Shown here in pieces: positions 21,641-58,235 of a stretch of DNA of 64,000 nt. Numbering within the stretch: position 1 is the first letter of the stretch; the number at the start of each line of letters is the position of its first letter. The notes under the pieces were generated by a model. It saw only the letters and a program-made list of their open reading frames with translations. It was not told where the DNA came from and did no database searches. The translations under genes were made by a program, and so were the position numbers. This stretch comes from Candidatus Azobacteroides sp. (GTDB lineage Bacteria; Bacteroidota; Bacteroidia; Bacteroidales; WRGA01). The stretch spans positions 1,165-65,164 of the forward strand of contig WRGA01000120.1 of assembly GCA_009787405.1 (NCBI GenBank), written 5' to 3'.

Positions 21641-23968
21641 TCAATACAACACTTTGACGGTTCGATTTCCGGATTTCACGATATATATGCCGCGAACCGG
21701 CAGACTGACTTCCGTTTTATCGCCTTTGGCAATATCCCGGTGAATGCAGATGCCGGAAATGTTATATACATTCCACATTTCCCCTGCAACGAGACCGCTG
21801 ACGTGCAATGTTCCGTTTTGGACGTATGCTTCCAATCCGGTTGCCTGCGGAGTGTTGATGCCGCTCGCATAAGCTGCCGTGATGATGCCCGTTCCTTCGA
21901 TTATCACGCTGCTTTCACCGCTTTCGAGAGCCACCGAAAAAGTAAACGAGCCGTTTGTTCCTGCCGAAGCCGGCATCATGCCGGTGACGGTAATATCATC
22001 CGCCGTTACCGTAAGACCTGTCTTATACCTAATCAGATTGTTGATATAGTCGACAAGCCGGGCTTTCACGGCATCTTCGGTGTTTGCAATCACTTCGGCT
22101 ACCGTATAGCTTACATTTTCCATCAAATCTGCGGCGGCATCCACTGCCTCTTGATTCGTCAGATACGTCAGATTCAGCGTACCTTGCAGTAATTTGCCGG
22201 TTAACCCGGTGGGCGAGGTGAAGGCGGAAGAGAGTGCATCGGCGCTGTTACTTGTCAGCACGCCGGCAATATACGACAAGGCGGGGTCATCAAACGTAAC
22301 GCCGGCGTCGAACGGAATACCGTTGGCGGTGTAAGTATCGGCACTGCCCGTCAGACTGAGATTGACCTGCTGATTATAGCCGAAGAACGACCACCCTACT
22401 AAACCGGAAAGCTCCGACAAATCTAACGTGGTCAGACTGTTGCCGTCGCAGGCAAGCCACCACAAATTGATAAGTCCCGACAAATCTAACGCAGTCAGAC
22501 CGTTGTTGTAGCAGTTAAGAGCTTGCAAATTGATAAGTCCCGACAAATCTAATGCAGTCAGACCATTGTTGCTACAAGAAAGATCTCGCAAATTGGTAAG
22601 TTCCGACACGTCCAACGCTGTCAAACTGTTGCCCTCGCAAGCAAGACTTTGCAACCCGATAAGCCCCGACAAATCTAACGCAGTCAGATCATTGTTGCTA
22701 CAAGAAAGATCTCGCAAATTGGTAAGTTCCGACAAATCTAACGCAGTCAGACCGTTGTTGTAGCAGTTAAGAGCTTGCAAATTGATAAGCTCCGACACGT
22801 CAAGTGTGCCGGTCAGTGATTGACTTGAAATATCTAAATCGGTAATGCGCTTGTCGATTCCATCATTCGACCAAACAGTAACACCTATCCATTCGCTCGG
22901 AAGGGAACTGCCGTCGGCAGGGGCTTTCGTCAATTGCAGACCATTGTTGTCGATGATAGCATTGATAACGGCAATGTCGCCGGGATGGTAGATTCCCGGA
23001 GCGCCTTGATAGCCCAAGCTCAACGTACCTTCCAGTAATCTACCTGTCAAACCGGTGGGTATTGAGAAAGAAGAAGTGTTTGGCGTATATGTACTTCTCA
23101 GTACCCCGCCGCTGTAAGACAAGGCAGGATCGCCAAACGTAACGCCGGTGCCGAACGTAACATCAGCGGTGTAGATGCCGGCGTTGCCTGTCAGGATGAG
23201 ATTAATCCGCTGATTACTACCGTCGAAATGTAAATTATCGGGAAGTCCCGACAAATCCACCGCAGTCAAATTGTTACTGAAGCATTCAAGACTTTGCAAT
23301 CCGGTAAGCCCCGATACATTCAATGTAGTCAGACTATTGTTGTTACAGTAAAGACCTCGCAAATTGGAAAGCCCCGATGCATCCAACGCAGTCAGATTGT
23401 TGAAGGGGCAACCAAGATATTGCAAACCGGTACACCCCGACACGTCCAACGCAGTCAGATTGTTGTTGCTACAGTAAAGATCTCGCAAATCGGAAAGCCT
23501 CGAAACATCTAACGCAGTCAGACTGTTGACCCAGCACCAAAGAGTTTGCAGAGCGGTAAGCCCTGAAACATTCATTGCAATCAGACTGTTTTCACCACAC
23601 TTAAGAGTTTGCAAATTGGTAAGCCCTGACACGTCAAGTGCGCCGGTCAGCGATTGACTTGAAATATCCAAGCCGGTAATGCGCTTGGTTCCATCATTTG
23701 ACCAAGTGACACCTGTCCAGTCACTCGGAACGGAACCGCCGTCGGTAGGGGCTTTTGTCCATTGCAGTCCGTTGTTGTCGATGATGGCGTTGATAACGGC
23801 TATGTCGCCGGGATGGTAGGTCTGCGCAAAGGCAGAGGTTACGGCGAAAGGCGCCCATACAAAAGCGAGAAGGGCAACCGACGCCCTGCCGGAAAATCGT
23901 TTGCCCGTGCCATGCGCTGCAAACACGGCTGCCAAAGCAGCGATAAAAGAAAGACCGGTTGTTTTCAT
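21641..23968 (-). CDS. Leucine-rich-repeat surface protein with a T9SS C-terminal sorting domain
   Basis: Signal peptide. Two tandem modules, each opening YHPGDIAVINAIIDNNGLQ.TKAP and followed by 22-23-aa LRRs (L..L.C..N.LTALDVSGL). C-terminal VRGIYIVKSGNRTVKVLY is a T9SS-like tail. Confidence 0.85.
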   Translation of the reverse strand: MKTTGLSFIAALAAVFAAHGTGKRFSGRASVALLAFVWAPFAVTSAFAQTYHPGDIAVINAIIDNNGLQWTKAPTDGGSVPSDWTGVTWSNDGTKRITGLDISSQSLTGALDVSGLTNLQTLKCGENSLIAMNVSGLTALQTLWCWVNSLTALDVSRLSDLRDLYCSNNNLTALDVSGCTGLQYLGCPFNNLTALDASGLSNLRGLYCNNNSLTTLNVSGLTGLQSLECFSNNLTAVDLSGLPDNLHFDGSNQRINLILTGNAGIYTADVTFGTGVTFGDPALSYSGGVLRSTYTPNTSSFSIPTGLTGRLLEGTLSLGYQGAPGIYHPGDIAVINAIIDNNGLQLTKAPADGSSLPSEWIGVTVWSNDGIDKRITDLDISSQSLTGTLDVSELINLQALNCYNNGLTALDLSELTNLRDLSCSNNDLTALDLSGLIGLQSLACEGNSLTALDVSELTNLRDLSCSNNGLTALDLSGLINLQALNCYNNGLTALDLSGLINLWWLACDGNSLTTLDLSELSGLVGWSFFGYNQQVNLSLTGSADTYTANGIPFDAGVTFDDPALSYIAGVLTSNSADALSSAFTSPTGLTGKLLQGTLNLTYLTNQEAVDAAADLMENVSYTVAEVIANTEDAVKARLVDYINNLIRYKTGLTVTADDITVTGMMPASAGTNGSFTFSVALESGESSVIIEGTGIITAAYASGINTPQATGLEAYVQNGTLHVSGLVAGEMWNVYNISGICIHRDIAKGDKTEVSLPVRGIYIVKSGNRTVKVLY

Positions 23969-24394
23969 TGTTGAATCAGTATTAAATTAGTACTCATAAA
24001 AATTGCAGATTTACGGAAATAGGTACCGCCGGGTACAACGTAATAAAAAAGAAGAGGCGTGGGAACTCTGTCTTAATTTTTTATTCGTTTCGAGGTATCG
24101 CCAAACACCTGCAACTCAAATAACAATAGACAAGCCCACGCCTTATTGAATACTTATGGATAAGTAAAACAAATAAAGGTGAGCGTTTAGTCGTCTACCA
24201 TTCTTGAGCTGCTTGAAAATTGGCGATTTTCGAAACAAGAATAATATATTAAAAAACGCTCTTCGTAAATAAAAGCGTCCCTTTTTTATGGTTCAAAAAG
24301 GAACGTCGTAAAAGTAGTAAAAGAATTAAAAAAGTATGACAAAAAAGTAAGAAATTTCACGATTACACAAAAAATGTTTTTCCGGTACAGTATA

Positions 24395-24690
24395 AGCAGT
24401 ATTTTTTATCAAATCCTCGGAGGCAGACACTGCTTCACGGTTCATCCGGTAAGTCAGGTATAGCGTGCCTTCCGGCCGGTTGTTTGTCTAAACCGGCGGA
24501 TGATGAGCAAGAGGAAACAGCCGGCGTATTGTCAGTGATTTTCAGTACGCCGTCACTGTAAGACAAGGTGGAAATGCCAAATATAACATCGGCCCGGCAA
24601 ACACGGCCAAAGCAGCGATAAAAAAAGACCGGTTATTTTCATTGTTGGATTCGTATTAAATTAGTATTCATGAAAATTGCAGATATACAA
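24395..24690 (-). pseudogene. Collapsed, frameshifted remnant of a paralogue of the adjacent LRR gene, including its 5' leader
   Basis: 24600-24690 matches 23925-24012 (signal-peptide codons plus upstream leader). 24440-24600 resembles the region around 22170-22300. The reading frame breaks after about 30 codons. Confidence 0.7.
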
Positions 24691-24895
24691 AAAATTTCTT
24701 TTCAAACTCTTAAAAAATATTTTTTGTCAAAAAGAAGAGTATAAACAGGTAATGATATAGAAACGAGCAAACTGCTTTTGCTTGCTGTGTTCTTCCATTG
24801 TTCCAAATAACTTGTGACAAAGGTGAATTATTCCGGAAATTAACAAGATATGCCTTATGTATTAAGAAAAACCGGAAAAATTAAATGCTTTGCAT

Positions 24896-24903
24896 TATCT
24901 TTG
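24896..24903 (+). promoter_or_regulatory. Bacteroidetes -7 promoter box (TAnnTTTG)
   Basis: tatctttg, 29 nt upstream of ATG 24932. Confidence 0.45.
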
Positions 24904-24931: not shown

Positions 24932-25342
24932 ATGGAAATTTTTAAATTGGACGGAGAAGACCAGCGGCTTTATTATCTGGTGGCACACTTGGTAATGAAT
25001 GAAGAAGTGCTGAATTATAATCTCCACTATCCTTATAAAACTTCTCCGGAATACAAATGGTTTATTGCCGCAGACAAGGAAAATACACTTGGTTTTATTC
25101 CGGTAAAATTAAAAGAAGGGAAAGCTACAATTAACAATTATTATGTGGCGGATGATGATACAAAAATTTTTTCCTTACTTTTAAAAGAGATCATCCGAGA
25201 GTTTCTGCCGGATTTTGAAATTGAATCGGTCACTCAAATACAGCATGTTCCATATTTTGAGCAAAATGGTTTCTCGATTACTCTTTACTGGAAAAAATAT
25301 GTAAAAATGAAAATACTCCGGAATGAAGAAAAATGTCTATGA
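24932..25342 (+). CDS. Small GNAT-like (acyl-CoA N-acyltransferase fold) protein, hypothetical
   Basis: 136 aa from the first ATG (the track start 24890 is TTG). The pattern FIPVKLKEGKATINNYYV...LLLKEII...FEQNGF resembles a minimal GNAT core. Overlaps the next gene by 20 nt. Confidence 0.4.
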   Translation: MEIFKLDGEDQRLYYLVAHLVMNEEVLNYNLHYPYKTSPEYKWFIAADKENTLGFIPVKLKEGKATINNYYVADDDTKIFSLLLKEIIREFLPDFEIESVTQIQHVPYFEQNGFSITLYWKKYVKMKILRNEEKCL

Positions 25343-26606
25343 ATTGGCAATGAAACGGATAGAGATCATTTTCAACGAGTTTGACAATGTCTACATATCC
25401 TTTTCCGGCGGTAAAGACAGCAGTGTAATGCTGAACCTTTGCATACAATACATAAGAAATAATAACCCGGAAAGAAAAATCGGCGTTTTTCATTTGGATT
25501 ACGAGGTGCAATACAACGAAACCGTTCAATATGTTGACCGTGTATTTCAAATGAATCCCGACATCATTGAAGTGTATCGCATCTGTGTGCCTTTCAAAGT
25601 AAGCACTTGTACTTCAATGTACCAAACATTTTGGCGGCCATGGGACGAGGCATGCAAAAATTTTTGGGTACGCGAGCTTCCTCCCGGCAGTTATACAAAA
25701 GAAGATTTTCCTTTTTATACCGAGGATATGTGGGATTATGATTTTCAAATCCTTTTTTCCCAATGGTATCACCGGTTGAAAAAAGCGAAAAAAACCTGTT
25801 GTCTGGTAGGCATACGGACACAGGAAAGCCTTCATCGCTGGCAAACAGTGCACAGCAACAAAAGATGTAACATGTATCGCTATTTAAAATGGACGCGAAA
25901 GCTATCCGACAATGTTTATAATGCGTATGTAATTTACGATTGGCTCACAACAGATATTTGGGTGGCGAATGCTCGTTTCGTATGGGATTATAACCGCTTA
26001 TATGATCTTTATTACAAAGCAGGCGTTCCGTTGGATAAGCAACGTGTGGCCAGTCCGTTTATATCGGAAGCGCAGGAAAGTTTATTGCTCTATCGCGCGA
26101 TCGACCCTGATATGTGGGGAAAAATGATATGCCGGGTGAATGGAGTGAACTTTACGGCAATTTACGGAAATACAAGCGTCGTTGCCCGAAAGAAGGTCAG
26201 GCTCCCGCCGGAGCACACGTGGGAAAGTTATATGCATTTCCTTTTATCTACTCTGCCGGAATCAACTCGTTTGAACTATTTGCAAAAATTATCCGTAAGC
26301 ATCAATTTCTGGCGCAATAAAGGAGGGTGCCTGTCTGAAGAAACGATTGAAAAGCTGCGTGCTTGCGGTATTGAGATTGAAGTATTAAATCATTCAAACT
26401 ATAAAACGGCTAAGCGTCCGGTTAAAATGGAATATCAGGATGATATAGATCTTCCGGACTTTAAAGACCTCCCGACTTTCAAAAGAATGTGTATCTGTAT
26501 TCTTAAAAATGATCATTTATGCAAGTATATGGGATTTGCCATGACAAAAAAAGAAATTGAGAATAGAAAACGAATCATGGATTTTTACCGGAATGTATAT
26601 AAATGA
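25323..26606 (+). CDS. PP-loop ATP-pyrophosphatase / PAPS-reductase-family protein with a long C-terminal extension (IbrA-like, DUF3440-type)
   Basis: SFSGGKDSSVML PP-loop, VGIRTQES, YDWLTTDIW, and a C-terminal YNRLYDLYYKAGVPLDKQRVASPF region as in IbrA-type proteins. Confidence 0.75.
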   Translation: MKKNVYELAMKRIEIIFNEFDNVYISFSGGKDSSVMLNLCIQYIRNNNPERKIGVFHLDYEVQYNETVQYVDRVFQMNPDIIEVYRICVPFKVSTCTSMYQTFWRPWDEACKNFWVRELPPGSYTKEDFPFYTEDMWDYDFQILFSQWYHRLKKAKKTCCLVGIRTQESLHRWQTVHSNKRCNMYRYLKWTRKLSDNVYNAYVIYDWLTTDIWVANARFVWDYNRLYDLYYKAGVPLDKQRVASPFISEAQESLLLYRAIDPDMWGKMICRVNGVNFTAIYGNTSVVARKKVRLPPEHTWESYMHFLLSTLPESTRLNYLQKLSVSINFWRNKGGCLSEETIEKLRACGIEIEVLNHSNYKTAKRPVKMEYQDDIDLPDFKDLPTFKRMCICILKNDHLCKYMGFAMTKKEIENRKRIMDFYRNVYK

Positions 26607-27115
26607 ACCGTACAGAACCGCACACAAGTCCTGTTTATAATATAAGGGCAATACCGGTAGAAAAAATACGGGCGAACGCATATAACCCGAATGTTGTAGC
26701 ACCCCCCGAACTTAAACTGCTGGAACTGTCGATTTGGGAGGATGGTTATACGATGCCCTGCGTTTGTTATTATCTCCCCGAAGAGGATGTATATGAACTT
26801 GTTGACGGATTTCACCGGTATTTGGTTATGAAAACATCGGTGCGTATTTATGAACGGGAAAAAGGGTTATTGCCCGTAACGTTGATAGATAAAGACCTGT
26901 CGAACCGTATGGCCTCAACCATCAGGCACAATCGCGCTCGCGGAACCCACAGCATCGAACTGATGACTAACATTGTAGCCGAACTCAAAAAGGCGGGAAT
27001 GAGCGATGAGTGGGTCATAAAAAATATCGGCATGGATAAAGATGAATTACTCCGATTCAAACAAATTTCGGGCTTGGCGGAATTATTTGCCGATAAAGAT
27101 TTCAGCATACCGTAA
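26603..27115 (+). CDS. ParB/Srx-like N-terminal domain protein (IbrB-like)
   Basis: IRANAYNPNVV...LLELSIWEDGYTMP...VDGFHRY...IRHNRARG. ATGA overlap with the preceding gene. Confidence 0.7.
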   Translation: MNRTEPHTSPVYNIRAIPVEKIRANAYNPNVVAPPELKLLELSIWEDGYTMPCVCYYLPEEDVYELVDGFHRYLVMKTSVRIYEREKGLLPVTLIDKDLSNRMASTIRHNRARGTHSIELMTNIVAELKKAGMSDEWVIKNIGMDKDELLRFKQISGLAELFADKDFSIP

Positions 27116-27128
27116 ATCAGTAACATTT

Positions 27129-27390
27129 ATCAAATCTTTTTAATAATTCTGTCCCGTCAGGACAAGAGGCTCGCACAGATTTCACGGATTTCACGGATTT
27201 TTTATATAAAGTCCAATTAAAATTTTCAATTAACAAACATCTAATCTGTTTATATACAGAAAATAAGGACTTTGTAAATTGTATTTTTTAACTGTCATTT
27301 ATATAATGGACGTTTTTCAAAATCCGTGTAATCTGTGAAATCTGTGCGAAAATAACGAGAATGTCTATATTATTCCGGATTCTTTAAAAT
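27129..27390. repeat. Long-hairpin repeat, family 2, copy 1 (with about 115-nt loop)
   Basis: tcgcacagatttcacggatttcacggatttt (27171-27201) pairs with aaaatccgtgtaatctgtgaaatctgtgcga (about 27318-27349). Shared leader atcaaatctttttaataattct and tail aaataacgagaatgtctatattattccggattctttaaaat. Confidence 0.85.
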
Positions 27391-27411
27391 ATATCTCGCA
27401 TCAAGTCCAAT

Positions 27412-27584
27412 ATCAAATCTTTTTAATAATTCTATCCATATTGCGTCCCGTCAGGACAAAAGGCTCACACAGATTTCACGGATTACACAGATTTTTTTAA
27501 TGGATGTTTTTCAAAATCTGTGTAATCTGTGAAATCTGTGCGAAAATAACGAGAATGTCTATATTATTCCGGATTCTTTAAAAT
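27412..27584. repeat. Long-hairpin repeat, family 2, copy 2 (short loop)
   Basis: Same leader, about 28-bp stem and tail as copy 1, directly repeated about 283 bp downstream. Confidence 0.85.
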
Positions 27585-27783
27585 GCATCATAAGCCATTC
27601 ATTTTTATTTCAGGTATAATATTAAAAATACAAAAGATGATATATTTTTCGGTATGTTTTCTCATAAAAGATAAAAAACACGCAAAAAAGCATTATCTTC
27701 GCAACATAAAACGTATTTACCGCATATTAAGTCTAATTCTCTTAAAATAAGAAATATACAATTTTATCAAAACATTTTTAAAA

Positions 27784-58073: not shown

Positions 58074-58235
58074 TCGCACAGATTACACGGATTACACGGA
58101 TTTCGGGTGATATTTTCGTTATTTCTTGTGTTTATTATTGCCGGGTTATCACTCTTTTCTATTTGACTTCGTCGATTTTCAATTCACAAATATATTGATT
58201 TTAAAAAATCTGTGCAATCCGTGAAATCTGTGCGA
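58074..58235. repeat. Long-hairpin repeat, family 2, copy 3
   Basis: tcgcacagattacacggattacacggattt ... aaaaatctgtgcaatccgtgaaatctgtgcga with an about 100-nt loop. Related to 27129-27584. Confidence 0.8.

What the first reader, a model, noticed from the sequence alone, without database searches (positions are those of the whole stretch)
24932..27115. Overlapping GNAT-like / PP-loop PAPS-reductase (IbrA-like) / ParB-like (IbrB-like) cassette: candidate uncharacterised nucleic-acid modification or defence module
**Seen.** Three + strand ORFs overlap by 20 nt (25323-25342) and by ATGA (26603-26606), behind a perfect TAnnTTTG box at 24896-24903. ORF2 (427 aa) has the PP-loop SFSGGKDSS and GIRTQES motifs of the PAPS-reductase/ATP-pyrophosphatase superfamily, the same superfamily as DndC and SspD. 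It also has a long C-terminal extension like the DUF3440 part of IbrA. ORF3 (170 aa) has a ParB/Srx-type domain (NAYNPNVV...VDGFHRY), like IbrB- and DndB-type proteins. ORF1 (136 aa) looks like a minimal GNAT fold.

**Established.** IbrA/IbrB-type pairs are widespread. They were named for an effect on prophage eib expression in E. coli. They have only been predicted computationally to act on DNA, and no biochemical function is established.

**Inference.** This may be a compact ATP-dependent (sulfur or acyl transfer?) nucleic-acid modification or anti-phage module. The GNAT-like partner is not part of the canonical pair.

**Context.** The setting is island-like. The left flank is a decayed duplicate of the neighbouring LRR gene, and the right flank holds two long-hairpin repeats. 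No cysteine desulfurase, DndDE-like gene or nuclease effector is adjacent.
Basis: partly seen in the sequence, partly recalled or inferred. Interest (0 to 1): 0.8.

Follow-up and report, generated by a model that had tools for sequence, protein, structure and literature searches.

The report
GNAT-IbrA-IbrB three-gene operon
A real, horizontally mobile three-gene operon joins the long-known but mechanistically unsolved IbrA/IbrB (YbdN/YbdM) enzyme pair to a dedicated, previously unnamed acetyltransferase-fold protein; this gives a new handle on what the pair does, but nothing here shows it is a phage-defence or sulfur-transfer system.

Summary
Three overlapping + strand genes lie at 24932-27115, behind a TAnnTTTG box.

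- **ORF2:** an IbrA/YbdN-family protein. Pfam gives DUF3440 at 1e-90 plus PAPS_reduct, and it is 32% identical to E. coli YbdN.
- **ORF3:** an IbrB/YbdM-family ParB/Srx protein, 48% identical to YbdM.
- **ORF1:** no sequence-family hit, but a confident GNAT fold (pLDDT 92.7). The canonical CoA-pyrophosphate loop is not conserved.

The trio is co-linear in 64 of 71 related loci. The three proteins co-diverge (r about 0.8), and the unit has crossed phyla. It usually carries its own promoter box and has no conserved fourth gene.

A homologous GNAT sits between IbrA and IbrB on Ralstonia megaplasmids, and probably also in Clostridia. Sampled phages and mobile elements instead pair IbrA/IbrB with an SNF2-family helicase.

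The surroundings are housekeeping genes, not a defence island. There is no PADLOC system match, no cysteine desulfurase (the neighbour is SerC) and no family-wide invariant cysteine. Dnd-like sulfur chemistry and a defence role are therefore unsupported.

My best reading is an ATP-dependent machine that modifies or regulates DNA, with a GNAT-fold accessory subunit (confidence about 0.4). I class it as a new variant of a known, unsolved kind.

The parts
24896..24903 (+). Bacteroidota-type -7 promoter box TATCTTTG (TAnnTTTG). It starts 36 nt before the ORF1 ATG.
   Evidence: Sequence. The motif is not enriched window-wide. A box at a similar distance is present in 44 of 64 related loci, against 4 of 64 in a control segment.
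24932..25342 (+). ORF1, 136 aa. Atypical GNAT-fold protein and first gene of the operon. It belongs to an unnamed family with no Pfam, NCBIfam, PHROG or PADLOC model.
   Evidence: No family hits. 155 close homologues, all Bacteroidales among those with a source organism name; the profile search finds 862 proteins, all unnamed or 'hypothetical' in the 120 listed. 309 clusters at 50% identity in 1.84 billion representatives. AF2 model pLDDT 92.7, pTM 0.87. Foldseek gives 205 PDB hits at E<=1e-3, and the 50 listed are all GNAT-family structures, TM up to 0.71. The motif-A loop is not conserved; conserved residues are N30xNYPFKT37, G54FxP57, N68NYY71, H105 and W120xxYxKM126.
25323..26606 (+). ORF2, 427 aa. 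IbrA/YbdN-family protein: an N-terminal PP-loop ATP-pyrophosphatase domain of the PAPS-reductase clade plus C-terminal DUF3440.
   Evidence: Pfam DUF3440 at 1.2e-90 and PAPS_reduct at 1.5e-12. 32% identity to E. coli YbdN over the full length, E 2e-62. phrog_2302 at 1e-98. S26xSGGKDS33 and G163IRxxES169 are invariant across the family, but no cysteine is. Best structural match is CysD, then FAD synthase, TilS and APS reductase.
26603..27115 (+). ORF3, 170 aa. IbrB/YbdM-family protein: a ParB/Srx-type N-domain (VDGFHR) plus a conserved C-terminal helical segment (RHNRARG...GMxxDE..R.KQ..GL), which I infer to be HTH-like.
   Evidence: 48% identity to E. coli YbdM, E 1e-50. phrog_2159 at 3.7e-72. 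Profile against PDB: ParB 6e-6, Noc 2e-5, SbnI and SerK weaker. Pfam ParB_N is below cutoff. 52 positions are at least 95% conserved across phyla.

Best explanation
The three genes form one self-contained operon that is probably translationally coupled. It encodes a three-subunit variant of the IbrA/IbrB (YbdN/YbdM) system.

**Shown**
- The gene identities, the operon structure and its own promoter box.
- Strict co-linearity and co-divergence of the three proteins.
- Horizontal transfer of the unit across phyla.
- The same IbrA/IbrB core takes alternative third partners elsewhere: a homologous GNAT in Ralstonia (and probably Clostridia), an SNF2-family helicase in sampled phages and mobile elements, or none in E. 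coli and Klebsiella.

**Inferred mechanism**
- IbrB, a ParB/Srx-type nucleotide-binding domain plus a probable DNA-binding helical domain, brings the complex to DNA.
- IbrA, a PP-loop enzyme of the PAPS-reductase, CysD and FAD-synthase clade, uses ATP to adenylylate an oxygen on the target.
- The target is most likely DNA, because the alternative partner is a DNA translocase.
- The GNAT-fold subunit then either adds an acyl or aminoacyl-type group to the activated site, or serves as a substrate-selecting or regulatory subunit. In this clade it has lost the canonical CoA-pyrophosphate loop.

**Expected outcome**
- An epigenetic or regulatory mark that changes gene expression. In E. coli, IbrAB is reported to activate the eib adhesin genes. 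In Ralstonia, IbrAB, an N-acetyltransferase and the adhesin RadA are co-regulated.
- I do not expect a restriction-type immunity system.
For: - **Operon.** Overlaps of 20 nt and 4 nt. A promoter box recurs upstream of ORF1 in 44 of 64 loci.
- **Unit.** ORF1, ORF2 and ORF3 are the only families conserved across 71 loci, at 64, 71 and 67 loci.
- **Co-divergence.** Pairwise identities of the three proteins correlate at r = 0.75-0.81.
- **Horizontal transfer.** The window's cassette is closer to Verrucomicrobia and Niabella copies (ORF2 73-74%) than to Bacteroides or Prevotellaceae copies (58-62%).
- **Family membership.** Established.
- **ORF1 fold.** GNAT fold.
- **Ralstonia.** The order is IbrA, 145-aa GNAT, IbrB. 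The GNAT scores Pfam Acetyltransf_1 25.3 bits against a cutoff of 20.7. hhalign to the ORF1 profile gives 96.7% probability, E 4e-10, and BLAST to ORF1-family representatives reaches 5e-13. The GNAT is found in 129 Ralstonia megaplasmid records, the same number that carry an IbrA homologue.
- **Clostridia.** The order is IbrA, 122-aa ORF, IbrB, with a borderline full-length match to the ORF1 profile.
- **DNA as target.** Seven mutually homologous SNF2-type helicases sit beside the IbrA/IbrB pair in phages and elements from Firmicutes, Flavobacteria and Alphaproteobacteria.
- **Adenylyl-transfer chemistry.** The PP-loop is invariant and the closest structures are CysD and FAD synthase.
- **Regulatory outcome.** IbrA and IbrB are described as regulators that activate the Eib genes (PMC6008420, citing Sandt et al. 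2002). In Ralstonia, IbrAB, an N-acetyltransferase and adhesin RadA rise together in one mutant (bioRxiv 10.1101/2025.06.11.659228), and a YadA-type adhesin gene lies directly upstream of ibrA.
Against: - No biochemical or modification data exist for any member of the family.
- The DUF3440 half of IbrA could not be modelled with confidence (pLDDT below 50 for residues 207-291), so nucleic-acid binding by IbrA is unproven.
- The closest solved structures to the PP-loop domain act on small molecules (CysD, FAD synthase) or on tRNA (TilS), not on DNA.
- ParB/Srx-fold proteins include small-molecule kinases (SbnI, SerK), which also appear as weak hits.
- The GNAT lacks the canonical CoA loop and may not be catalytic.
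- No gene fusion proves a physical complex. The long proteins I examined were assembly artefacts.
- No adhesin or other target gene is consistently adjacent in Bacteroidota.
Confidence: 0.4

Rival explanations
1. It is a transcription-regulatory module with no covalent DNA modification. IbrB is a DNA-binding regulator. IbrA makes or senses a nucleotide-derived ligand. The GNAT acetylates a protein, either IbrB itself or a nucleoid protein.
For: - IbrA and IbrB are described as regulators that activate the Eib genes (PMC6008420).
- YbdM is listed as a predicted transcription factor, and ybdNM is repressed by the LysR regulator CitR (PMC9068703).
- The Ralstonia GNAT is annotated 'transcriptional regulator' and is co-regulated with an adhesin.
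- IbrB has a conserved C-terminal helical segment.
- DndB, a ParB-superfamily relative, is reported to be an ATP-dependent transcriptional regulator (PMC10853773).
Against: - A plain regulator would not need an invariant PP-loop enzyme of 427 aa.
- It would also not need an SNF2 translocase partner in phages.
- 75-90% identity of IbrB to the window copy across families, classes and phyla suggests an enzyme-like constraint rather than a regulator adapted to local promoters.
- The flanking genes differ between loci.
Confidence: 0.17
2. It is an anti-phage (or anti-plasmid) defence system.
For: - IbrA has distant PP-loop relatives in Dnd, Ssp and BREX type 4 (weak hits).
- ParB-superfamily proteins occur in conflict systems (PMC10853773).
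- The cassette is patchily distributed and horizontally transferred.
- In a subset of Bacteroides loci it directly follows an MksE/MksB-like gene set.
Against: - No nuclease or other effector is present, and there is no conserved fourth gene.
- No PADLOC system matches.
- The neighbours are housekeeping or carbohydrate-metabolism genes here and in three other sampled genomes.
- Many phages carry the IbrA/IbrB core themselves: 226 phage records, phrog_2302 and phrog_2159. That fits self-modification or counter-defence better than host immunity.
Confidence: 0.13
3. It is a small-molecule pathway. IbrB phosphorylates and IbrA adenylylates a metabolite, and the GNAT N-acylates it, for example in an amino-acid, siderophore or nucleotide-derived product.
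For: - The closest structures to IbrA's catalytic domain are CysD and FAD synthase, both adenylyl transfer to small oxyanions.
- ParB/Srx-fold serine kinases SbnI and SerK appear among IbrB's weak hits.
- The cassette sits next to serC-serA here.
- In Klebsiella plasmids the pair sits between fec and iro siderophore genes.
Against: - The neighbours are not conserved, so the serC-serA adjacency looks incidental.
- A metabolite pathway does not explain the SNF2 helicase partner or the position of the module after the lysis genes in three sampled Firmicutes phages.
- IbrB's strongest natural-protein hits are DNA-binding ParB and Noc.
Confidence: 0.12
4. It is an RNA (tRNA or rRNA) modification enzyme set, by analogy with PP-loop tRNA modifiers such as TilS, TtcA, TtuA and NcsA, and with GNAT RNA acetyltransferases.
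For: TilS, NcsA and TtuA are among the structural neighbours of the ORF2 N-domain, and weak TilS and TtcA hits appear in NCBIfam. That GNAT enzymes such as TmcA acetylate tRNA is my own recollection, not tested here.
Against: - The distribution is patchy and the cassette is transferred horizontally, which is unlike core translation factors.
- The alternative partner is an SNF2-family helicase, a family I know as dsDNA translocases.
- The second subunit is a ParB-type protein.
- No cysteine is invariant, as thiolation would require.
Confidence: 0.07

Closest known systems
E. coli IbrA/IbrB (ECOR-9 island) and the K-12 proteins YbdN/YbdM
   Same: - ORF2 and ORF3 are full-length homologues of YbdN and YbdM (32% and 48% identity).
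- They have the same PAPS_reduct + DUF3440 and ParB-like architectures.
- The gene order is the same, IbrA then IbrB with an overlap, and the pair is co-transcribed.
   Different: - The E. coli pair has no GNAT gene, and ybdNM lies next to the LysR repressor gene citR.
- ORF2 carries a roughly 33-residue insertion relative to YbdN.
- The only reported phenotype, activation of eib genes, has no counterpart tested here.
Ralstonia solanacearum megaplasmid operon: IbrA, GNAT, IbrB
   Same: - It has the same three protein families in one operon.
- Its 145-aa GNAT is homologous to ORF1 (hhalign 96.7%, E 4e-10).
- The GNAT occurs in 129 Ralstonia megaplasmid records, the same number that carry IbrA.
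   Different: - The gene order differs: the GNAT lies between IbrA and IbrB.
- The Ralstonia GNAT is recognisable by Pfam and keeps a near-canonical R-G-R-G motif A, whereas ORF1 has an acidic, variable loop there.
- A YadA-type adhesin gene lies upstream.
- Core proteins are only about 28% (IbrA) and 44% (IbrB) identical to the window's.
Phage and mobile-element triad: SNF2-type helicase, IbrA, IbrB (phrog_62, phrog_2302, phrog_2159)
   Same: - The IbrA/IbrB core is the same, up to 57% identical in Streptococcus phages.
- It is also a three-gene co-directional module.
   Different: - The third partner is an SNF2-family helicase of about 390-470 aa instead of a GNAT.
- The window encodes no such helicase.
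- ORF1 has no PHROG family. Only 9 of 2.9 million viral contigs carry a homologue, and the one contig I inspected shows host-like flanks.
DndB/DndC of the Dnd DNA-phosphorothioation system (also SspD and BrxP)
   Same: It pairs a PAPS-reductase-clade PP-loop ATP pyrophosphatase with a ParB-superfamily protein (PMC10853773). ORF3's VDGFHR resembles the DGQHR motif that I recall for DndB (from memory, not tested).
   Different: - The DndC model scores 18.9 bits against a cutoff of 290.
- There is no 4Fe-4S cysteine triad or cysteine dyad.
- There are no DndA, DndD or DndE genes, and no desulfurase nearby because the neighbour is SerC.
- DUF3440 is absent from DndC (recalled, not tested here).
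Phage Mu Mom (a GNAT-fold DNA-modifying enzyme; recalled from the literature, not tested here)
   Same: It is a small GNAT-fold protein with a non-canonical cofactor site that acts on DNA bases. This is precedent for a GNAT fold in DNA hypermodification.
   Different: No sequence or structural comparison with Mom was run. Mom works without a PP-loop or ParB partner.

Membership tests
IbrA / YbdN family (PAPS_reduct + DUF3440) | N-terminal PP-loop (SGGKDS) PAPS-reductase-type domain | tested here: met
   SFSGGKDSS at residues 26-34. Pfam PAPS_reduct 48.3 bits against a cutoff of 22.5. The motif is invariant in 16 diverse family members.
IbrA / YbdN family (PAPS_reduct + DUF3440) | C-terminal DUF3440 domain | tested here: met
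   PF11922 at 1.2e-90, 302.6 bits, covering profile positions 1-181 of 182.
IbrA / YbdN family (PAPS_reduct + DUF3440) | Full-length homology to an E. coli family member | tested here: met
   32% identity to YbdN over 414 aligned columns, E 2e-62.
IbrA / YbdN family (PAPS_reduct + DUF3440) | Activates prophage eib expression (the phenotype that named the family) | not testable with these tools
   Known only from E. coli ECOR-9 genetics, as cited in PMC6008420.
IbrB / YbdM family (ParB/Srx-like) | ParB/Srx-type N-terminal domain | tested here: met
   Pfam ParB_N alone is below cutoff (19.6 against 26.3 bits). A family profile hits ParB 4umk at 6e-6 and Noc at 2e-5. phrog_2159 at 3.7e-72.
IbrB / YbdM family (ParB/Srx-like) | Homology to E. 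coli YbdM, encoded immediately downstream of the IbrA-type gene | tested here: met
   48% identity, E 1e-50. ATGA overlap with ORF2.
GNAT (GCN5-related N-acetyltransferase) superfamily, for ORF1 | GNAT alpha/beta fold | tested here: met
   AF2 pLDDT 92.7. 205 Foldseek PDB hits at E<=1e-3, and all 50 listed are GNAT-family structures, TM up to 0.71.
GNAT (GCN5-related N-acetyltransferase) superfamily, for ORF1 | Sequence match to a GNAT family model | tested here: not met
   No Pfam or NCBIfam GNAT hit at E<=1. Only weak PDB sequence hits, 0.087-1.1. Homology to a Pfam-recognisable GNAT from Ralstonia is established indirectly (hhalign 96.7%).
GNAT (GCN5-related N-acetyltransferase) superfamily, for ORF1 | Motif A, the Q/R-x-x-G-x-G/A acetyl-CoA pyrophosphate-binding loop between beta4 and alpha3 | tested here: not met
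   The loop reads V-A-D-D-D-T-K here. It is variable and mostly acidic across 22 family members.
GNAT (GCN5-related N-acetyltransferase) superfamily, for ORF1 | Acyl-CoA-dependent acyltransferase activity | not testable with these tools
   Needs cofactor-binding and activity assays.
Dnd DNA phosphorothioation (DndC/DndB) | DndC equivalog match | tested here: not met
   TIGR03183 scores 18.9 bits against a cutoff of 290.4. PADLOC DndC scores 24 bits.
Dnd DNA phosphorothioation (DndC/DndB) | 4Fe-4S cysteine triad and cysteine dyad in the PP-loop enzyme (as described in PMC10853773) | tested here: not met
   No cysteine is invariant across 16 diverse IbrA-family sequences.
Dnd DNA phosphorothioation (DndC/DndB) | Cysteine desulfurase DndA and DndD/DndE in the neighbourhood | tested here: not met
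   Neighbours are carB, an LRR protein, SerC, a SerA-type dehydrogenase and DUF1015. No conserved fourth gene in 71 loci.
Ssp or BREX type 4 (SspD, BrxP) | Match to SspD or BrxP together with the other system genes | tested here: not met
   Only PP-loop-level similarity: BrxP 26 bits over 65 residues, SspD 19.7 bits. No other Ssp or BREX genes nearby.
Any catalogued anti-phage defence system (PADLOC-DB v2) | System-level match of the component proteins | tested here: not met
   ORF1 and ORF3 have no hits, and ORF2 has only weak PP-loop hits.
Phage/MGE helicase-IbrA-IbrB triad | SNF2-type helicase gene adjacent to the pair | tested here: not met
   No homologue of the seven partner helicases anywhere in the window (best tblastn E 0.44). 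ORF1 occupies the upstream position instead.

The most novel reading that the evidence does not exclude
GNAT-IbrA-IbrB is a previously unrecognised three-enzyme DNA hypermodification (epigenetic) system. IbrB would target DNA, IbrA would adenylylate a base or backbone oxygen, and the GNAT-fold subunit would install an acyl or aminoacyl-type group from a non-canonical donor. The system is spread by horizontal transfer among Bacteroidota, termite-gut Verrucomicrobia, Clostridia and the plant pathogen Ralstonia. It would control expression of surface or adhesin genes. Phages would use the helicase-linked version of the same core to mark their own DNA.
Probability: 0.2. Interest if true: 0.8.

Novelty: new variant of a known kind. 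Interest (0 to 1): 0.55.

Why it matters
IbrA/IbrB (YbdN/YbdM) is widespread. By my recollection the pair has had no known biochemistry since it was named in 2002, and none of my literature searches turned up a mechanistic study.

The core comes with interchangeable third partners. In cellular genomes of three phyla it is a dedicated GNAT-fold protein. In phages and mobile elements it is an SNF2 helicase. This turns a vague 'DUF + ParB-like' pair into a concrete, testable hypothesis: ATP-dependent activation of DNA followed by group transfer, or a regulated version of that.

It also points to tractable organisms for testing, such as cultured Bacteroides and Parabacteroides species and Ralstonia GMI1000. 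In addition, it defines a new unnamed protein family, the ORF1 type, with 862 clusters and no Pfam model. That family could be annotated as 'IbrAB-associated GNAT-fold protein'.

Tried and rejected
- **Literature.** Ten full-text searches found no mechanistic study of IbrA/IbrB or DUF3440 and no description of a GNAT partner. Sandt et al. 2002 and Maindola et al. 2014 are not held.\n- **Known defence systems.** PADLOC gave only weak PP-loop hits, so a Dnd, Ssp or BREX assignment was rejected.\n- **Fusions as evidence of a complex.** P0208 and P0229 are internal duplications. P0312 is a frameshifted read-through, and P0395 looks like an ORF1(1-60)-IbrB chimera or deletion. None is usable.\n- **DUF3440 fold.** The ORF2 AF2 model was good only for the PP-loop domain (mean pLDDT 66, and below 50 for residues 207-291). 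Foldseek therefore returned only generic PP-loop neighbours.\n- **Phage-borne GNAT version.** ORF1 has no PHROG. Its only hits in the phage collection are four unannotated faecal fragments. Only 9 IMG/VR contigs carry a homologue, and the one I inspected has host-like flanks.\n- **'Cassette regulates an adjacent surface protein'.** No LRR homologue and no recurrent neighbour was found in the other Bacteroidota loci. I kept this only as a lead from Ralstonia and E. coli.\n- **Neighbouring Aminotran_5 gene as a sulfur donor.** Rejected, because it is SerC.\n- **Right-flank hairpins as a known RNA.** The only Rfam hits are far-below-threshold eukaryotic miRNA families.\n- **TAnnTTTG as significant in itself.** Rejected window-wide. 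It is supported only by positional conservation across loci.

Full report
**1. Observation**

The window holds three co-directional ORFs exactly as described.
- ORF1 is 24932-25342 (136 aa), ORF2 is 25323-26606 (427 aa) and ORF3 is 26603-27115 (170 aa).
- ORF1 and ORF2 overlap by 20 nt. ORF2 and ORF3 overlap by ATGA.
- The open frame of ORF1 begins at a TTG at 24890. All homologues start M-[ED]-I-[IV]-K-L, so ATG 24932 is the real start.
- TATCTTTG lies at 24896-24903. The TAnnTTTG pattern is not over-represented in the window (69 found, 65 expected).
- Its position is conserved, however. 44 of 64 related loci have a box within 100 nt upstream of the ORF1 homologue, mostly 29-50 nt from the ATG. 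A same-sized control segment has one in 4 of 64.
- ORF1 is therefore the promoter-proximal gene of an operon with its own promoter.

**2. Identity of ORF2 and ORF3**

ORF2:
- It matches Pfam DUF3440 (1.2e-90) and PAPS_reduct (1.5e-12).
- It is 32% identical to E. coli K-12 YbdN over its full length, E 2e-62.
- It matches phrog_2302 at 1e-98.

ORF3:
- It reaches ParB_N only below Pfam's cutoff.
- It is 48% identical to YbdM, E 1e-50, and matches phrog_2159 at 3.7e-72.
- A 13-sequence family profile hits ParB (4umk, 6e-6) and Noc (7ol9, 2e-5) structures. The ParB/Srx-fold serine kinases SbnI and SerK are weaker hits.

Both proteins are therefore members of the IbrA/IbrB (YbdN/YbdM) families. Models for DndC, SspD, BrxP, CysD and TilS give only PP-loop-level scores far below their cutoffs.

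Across 16 diverse IbrA-family sequences from Bacteroidota, Clostridia, Alphaproteobacteria, E. coli and a Streptococcus phage:
- the PP-loop S26-x-S-G-G-K-D-S33 and G163-I-R-x-x-E-S169 are invariant;
- no cysteine is invariant. C390 is present in 15 of 16, C400 and C88 in 14 of 16, and the Clostridia and E. coli copies lack several.

DndC is defined by a 4Fe-4S cysteine triad and a cysteine dyad (PMC10853773). A Dnd-like sulfur mechanism is therefore not supported for the family.

IbrB is unusually constrained, with 52 positions at least 95% conserved across 22 sequences from several phyla.

The AF2 model of ORF2 is confident only for the PP-loop domain. Its nearest solved structures are CysD, FAD synthase, TilS and APS reductase. 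This places it in the adenylyl-transfer and PAPS-reductase clade and gives no finer assignment.

**3. Identity of ORF1**

- ORF1 has no hit in Pfam, NCBIfam, PADLOC or PHROGs.
- It is a real protein with 155 close homologues, all Bacteroidales among those with a source organism name.
- A profile search finds 862 clusters. None has a Pfam domain, and the 120 listed are unnamed or 'hypothetical'.
- It has 309 clusters at 50% identity among 1.84 billion representatives. Almost all are standalone proteins of about 130-140 aa.
- AlphaFold2 gives a confident model (pLDDT 92.7, pTM 0.87).
- Foldseek returns 205 PDB matches at E<=1e-3. The 50 listed are all GNAT-family structures, including YjcF, GCN5, ElaA, SpeG and RimI, with TM up to 0.71.

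The defining motif A is not conserved, though. The Q/R-x-x-G-x-G/A loop between beta4 and alpha3 binds the CoA pyrophosphate. Here it reads V-A-D-D-D-T-K, and it is variable and mostly acidic across the family.

The conserved residues lie elsewhere: N30-x-N-Y-P-F-K-T37, W43, G54-F-x-P57, N68-N-Y-Y71, H105 and W120-x-x-Y-x-K-M126. ORF1 is thus an atypical GNAT. It may use another donor, or it may be a non-catalytic subunit.

**4. The three genes are one unit**

- A scan of one genome per species returned 68 loci encoding ORF2 relatives. With three loci from ORF1 look-ups, ORF1, ORF2 and ORF3 homologues are co-linear in nearly every Bacteroidota locus. These include Tannerella, Dysgonomonas, Parabacteroides, Proteiniphilum, Rikenellaceae, several Bacteroides species, Phocaeicola, Coprobacter, Prevotellaceae and Niabella. 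Termite-gut Opitutaceae and Ereboglobus also carry the trio.
- Clustering all flanking ORFs shows only three families shared across loci: ORF2-like in 71, ORF3-like in 67 and ORF1-like in 64. The other large clusters overlap those same genes in another frame or on the other strand. No fourth gene is conserved.
- Immediate neighbours differ from locus to locus.
- Pairwise identities of the three proteins correlate at r = 0.75-0.81 over 57 loci. Mean identities are 0.47 for ORF1, 0.66 for ORF2 and 0.79 for ORF3.
- The window's copy is closer to Verrucomicrobia and Chitinophagia copies (ORF2 73-74%) than to same-order Bacteroides (61%) or Prevotellaceae (58%). Two Parabacteroides genomes carry very different versions, 80% against 59%.

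The cassette therefore moves horizontally as a unit.

**5. The GNAT partner is not confined to Bacteroidota, and there is an alternative partner**

Ralstonia:
- On Ralstonia megaplasmids the order is IbrA, a 145-aa ORF annotated 'transcriptional regulator', then IbrB.
- That ORF passes Pfam Acetyltransf_1 (25.3 bits, cutoff 20.7).
- It matches the ORF1 profile (hhalign 96.7%, E 4e-10, 123 columns) and ORF1-family representatives by BLAST down to 5e-13.
- It keeps a near-canonical R-G-R-G motif.
- It occurs in 129 Ralstonia megaplasmid records, the same number that carry an IbrA homologue.

Clostridia: in two MAGs a 122-aa ORF lies between IbrA and IbrB. It aligns end to end with the ORF1 profile at borderline significance (E 1.7e-4, probability 50%).

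Pair only: E. coli K-12 and Klebsiella plasmids have the pair with no third gene.

Phages and mobile elements:
- The pair is preceded by a protein of about 390-470 aa in Streptococcus PYS40 and CHPC1148, Lactobacillus CR28, Clostridium phiCs5676-1 and Flavobacterium 23T. The same holds in a Flavobacteriales element with an integrase-like ORF and in an alphaproteobacterial contig.
- All seven proteins are mutually homologous (27-93% identity).
- The three scanned carry an SNF2-related domain, and two of them also Helicase_C.
- In three of the Firmicutes phages (PYS40, CR28, phiCs5676-1) the module sits shortly after the lysis genes.
- The window has no such helicase.

The IbrA/IbrB core thus recruits one of at least two third partners.

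**6. Context**

- The window's neighbourhood is housekeeping: OmpA-family, a class II aminoacyl-tRNA synthetase, a pseudouridine synthase, adenylosuccinate lyase, carB and an LRR surface protein. After the cassette come SerC, a phosphoglycerate-dehydrogenase-type enzyme and DUF1015.
- The Aminotran_5 neighbour is SerC (470.7 bits, cutoff 253) and not a cysteine desulfurase.
- GC is 0.32-0.35 over ORF1 and 0.40-0.44 over ORF2-3. Most flanking windows are 0.42-0.47.
- In other genomes the cassette lies beside a queuosine-synthesis gene and Smr, beside anaerobic ribonucleotide reductase and galactose-utilisation genes, or beside glycoside hydrolases and a TonB-dependent receptor.
- None of these is a defence island, and no integrase flanks the Bacteroidota cassettes I sampled.
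A decayed, internally deleted copy of the LRR gene lies at about 24380-24693 on the minus strand (88.5% over 96 nt; protein remnants E 1e-7). Two units of a hairpin repeat lie at 27146-27589, with a third copy at 58077-58232.

**7. Mechanism**

Shown: an autonomous operon, probably translationally coupled, of an invariant PP-loop enzyme, a highly constrained ParB/Srx protein and a co-evolving GNAT-fold protein.

Inferred:
- (a) The three act as a complex.
- (b) The target is DNA. The interchangeable partner is an SNF2-family helicase, a family I know as dsDNA translocases, and IbrB's best natural matches are the DNA-binding proteins ParB and Noc.
- (c) IbrA adenylylates an oxygen on the target, as its closest structural relatives do on sulfate or phosphate.
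- (d) The GNAT-fold protein transfers a group or selects and regulates the substrate.
- (e) The outcome is regulatory or epigenetic.

For (e), IbrA and IbrB are described as regulators that activate the Eib genes (PMC6008420). From my own knowledge, Eib proteins are YadA-class adhesins. In Ralstonia, a YadA-type adhesin gene precedes ibrA, and IbrAB, an N-acetyltransferase and adhesin RadA rise together in an rprR mutant.

I put this reading at about 0.4. The rivals are:
- a pure regulator (0.17);
- a defence system (0.13);
- a small-molecule pathway (0.12);
- RNA modification (0.07).

The defence reading is weakened by four things. There is no effector gene, no PADLOC match and no defence neighbourhood, and phages carry the core themselves (226 phage records).

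**8. Novelty and verdict**

- The IbrA/IbrB pair is known and widespread but mechanistically unsolved.
- I found no literature on a GNAT partner or on the helicase triad as a defined system in ten searches.
- The cassette is best filed as a new three-component variant of a known kind. ORF1 founds an unnamed GNAT-fold family.
- It is interesting because partner swapping (GNAT or SNF2 helicase) gives a concrete hypothesis for a question I recall being open since 2002.
- Interest is 0.55.

Noticed in passing
window 27146-27589 and 58077-58232: A dispersed intergenic hairpin repeat. Two tandem units lie right after ORF3, with 31-nt inverted arms at 27171-27201/27319-27349 and 27465-27495/27513-27543, and direct repeats of 99 nt (94%) and 58 nt (90%). 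A third copy lies 31 kb away. The core CACAGATTTCACGGATT gives 12 matches against 0.34 expected. No Rfam family matches; the only hits are far-below-threshold miRNA families. It could be a MITE- or REP-like element, or it could act as the operon's terminator.
   Followed up: partly
window 24380-24693 (- strand), with the intact gene at 21641-23968: A decayed, internally deleted duplicate of the neighbouring 775-aa LRR surface-protein gene, including its 5' end and upstream region. 23914-24019 matches 24592-24693 at 86-95%, and protein remnants reach E 1e-7. This leaves a 963-nt gene-free gap upstream of the cassette.
   Followed up: partly
window 24764-24786: A bidirectional terminator-like hairpin lies between the LRR-gene remnant and the cassette promoter box. 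The simple scan finds no intrinsic terminator after ORF3.
   Followed up: no
L090 2393-10266; L070 (1231-aa ORF ending 23 nt before the ORF1 homologue): In a subset of Bacteroides-type loci the cassette directly follows a gene set made of a 409-aa unknown, MksE and a 1231-aa DUF3584 protein that I take to be MksB-like. This resembles a condensin or Wadjet-like operon. ParB-type proteins are known to load SMC complexes (recalled, not tested), so a functional link is conceivable. I did not check for JetD.
   Followed up: partly
L084 2262-7256 (Ralstonia solanacearum megaplasmid CP052131.1): An 865-aa YadA-type trimeric autotransporter adhesin gene lies directly upstream of the IbrA-GNAT-IbrB operon. 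A preprint reports IbrAB, an N-acetyltransferase and adhesin RadA co-upregulated in an rprR mutant in planta. This echoes E. coli IbrAB activating the eib genes, whose products I recall being the same adhesin class.
   Followed up: partly
L072 4827-7768; L073 4815-7771; L075 1761-4811; L076 1581-4948; L077 1200-4110; L058 3781-6895; L067 1040-4010: A conserved module of SNF2-type helicase, IbrA and IbrB occurs in temperate phages of Streptococcus, Lactobacillus, Clostridium and Flavobacterium, and in two cellular mobile-element contexts. In phage 23T the order is helicase, IbrB, IbrA. In PYS40, CR28 and phiCs5676-1 it sits shortly after the lysis genes. I found no description of it as a system.
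   Followed up: partly
L072 6022-7269 (Streptococcus phage PYS40): The phage IbrA is 57% identical to the Bacteroidota ORF2. The two sequences align end to end, so they probably share the roughly 33-residue insertion that E. coli YbdN lacks. This points to recent cross-phylum transfer between Firmicutes phages and Bacteroidota chromosomes.
   Followed up: no
L085 4962-6823 (Klebsiella pneumoniae IncFIB plasmid): An IbrA/IbrB pair with no third gene sits between the fecI/fecA ferric-citrate genes and the iroBC salmochelin genes. IbrA homologues occur in 323 Klebsiella and 190 Escherichia plasmid records.
   Followed up: no
protein P0395 (223 aa, metagenomic): The first 60 or so residues of an ORF1-type protein are joined directly to an IbrB-type sequence, skipping IbrA. 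It is either an assembly chimera or a natural deletion. It is a single cluster and its context could not be looked up.
   Followed up: no
L083 5562-7817 (Bacteroides finegoldii 'plasmid 67', NZ_OY725969.1): [quoted passage not shown] The partition annotation of the IbrB homologue is probably misleading.
   Followed up: no
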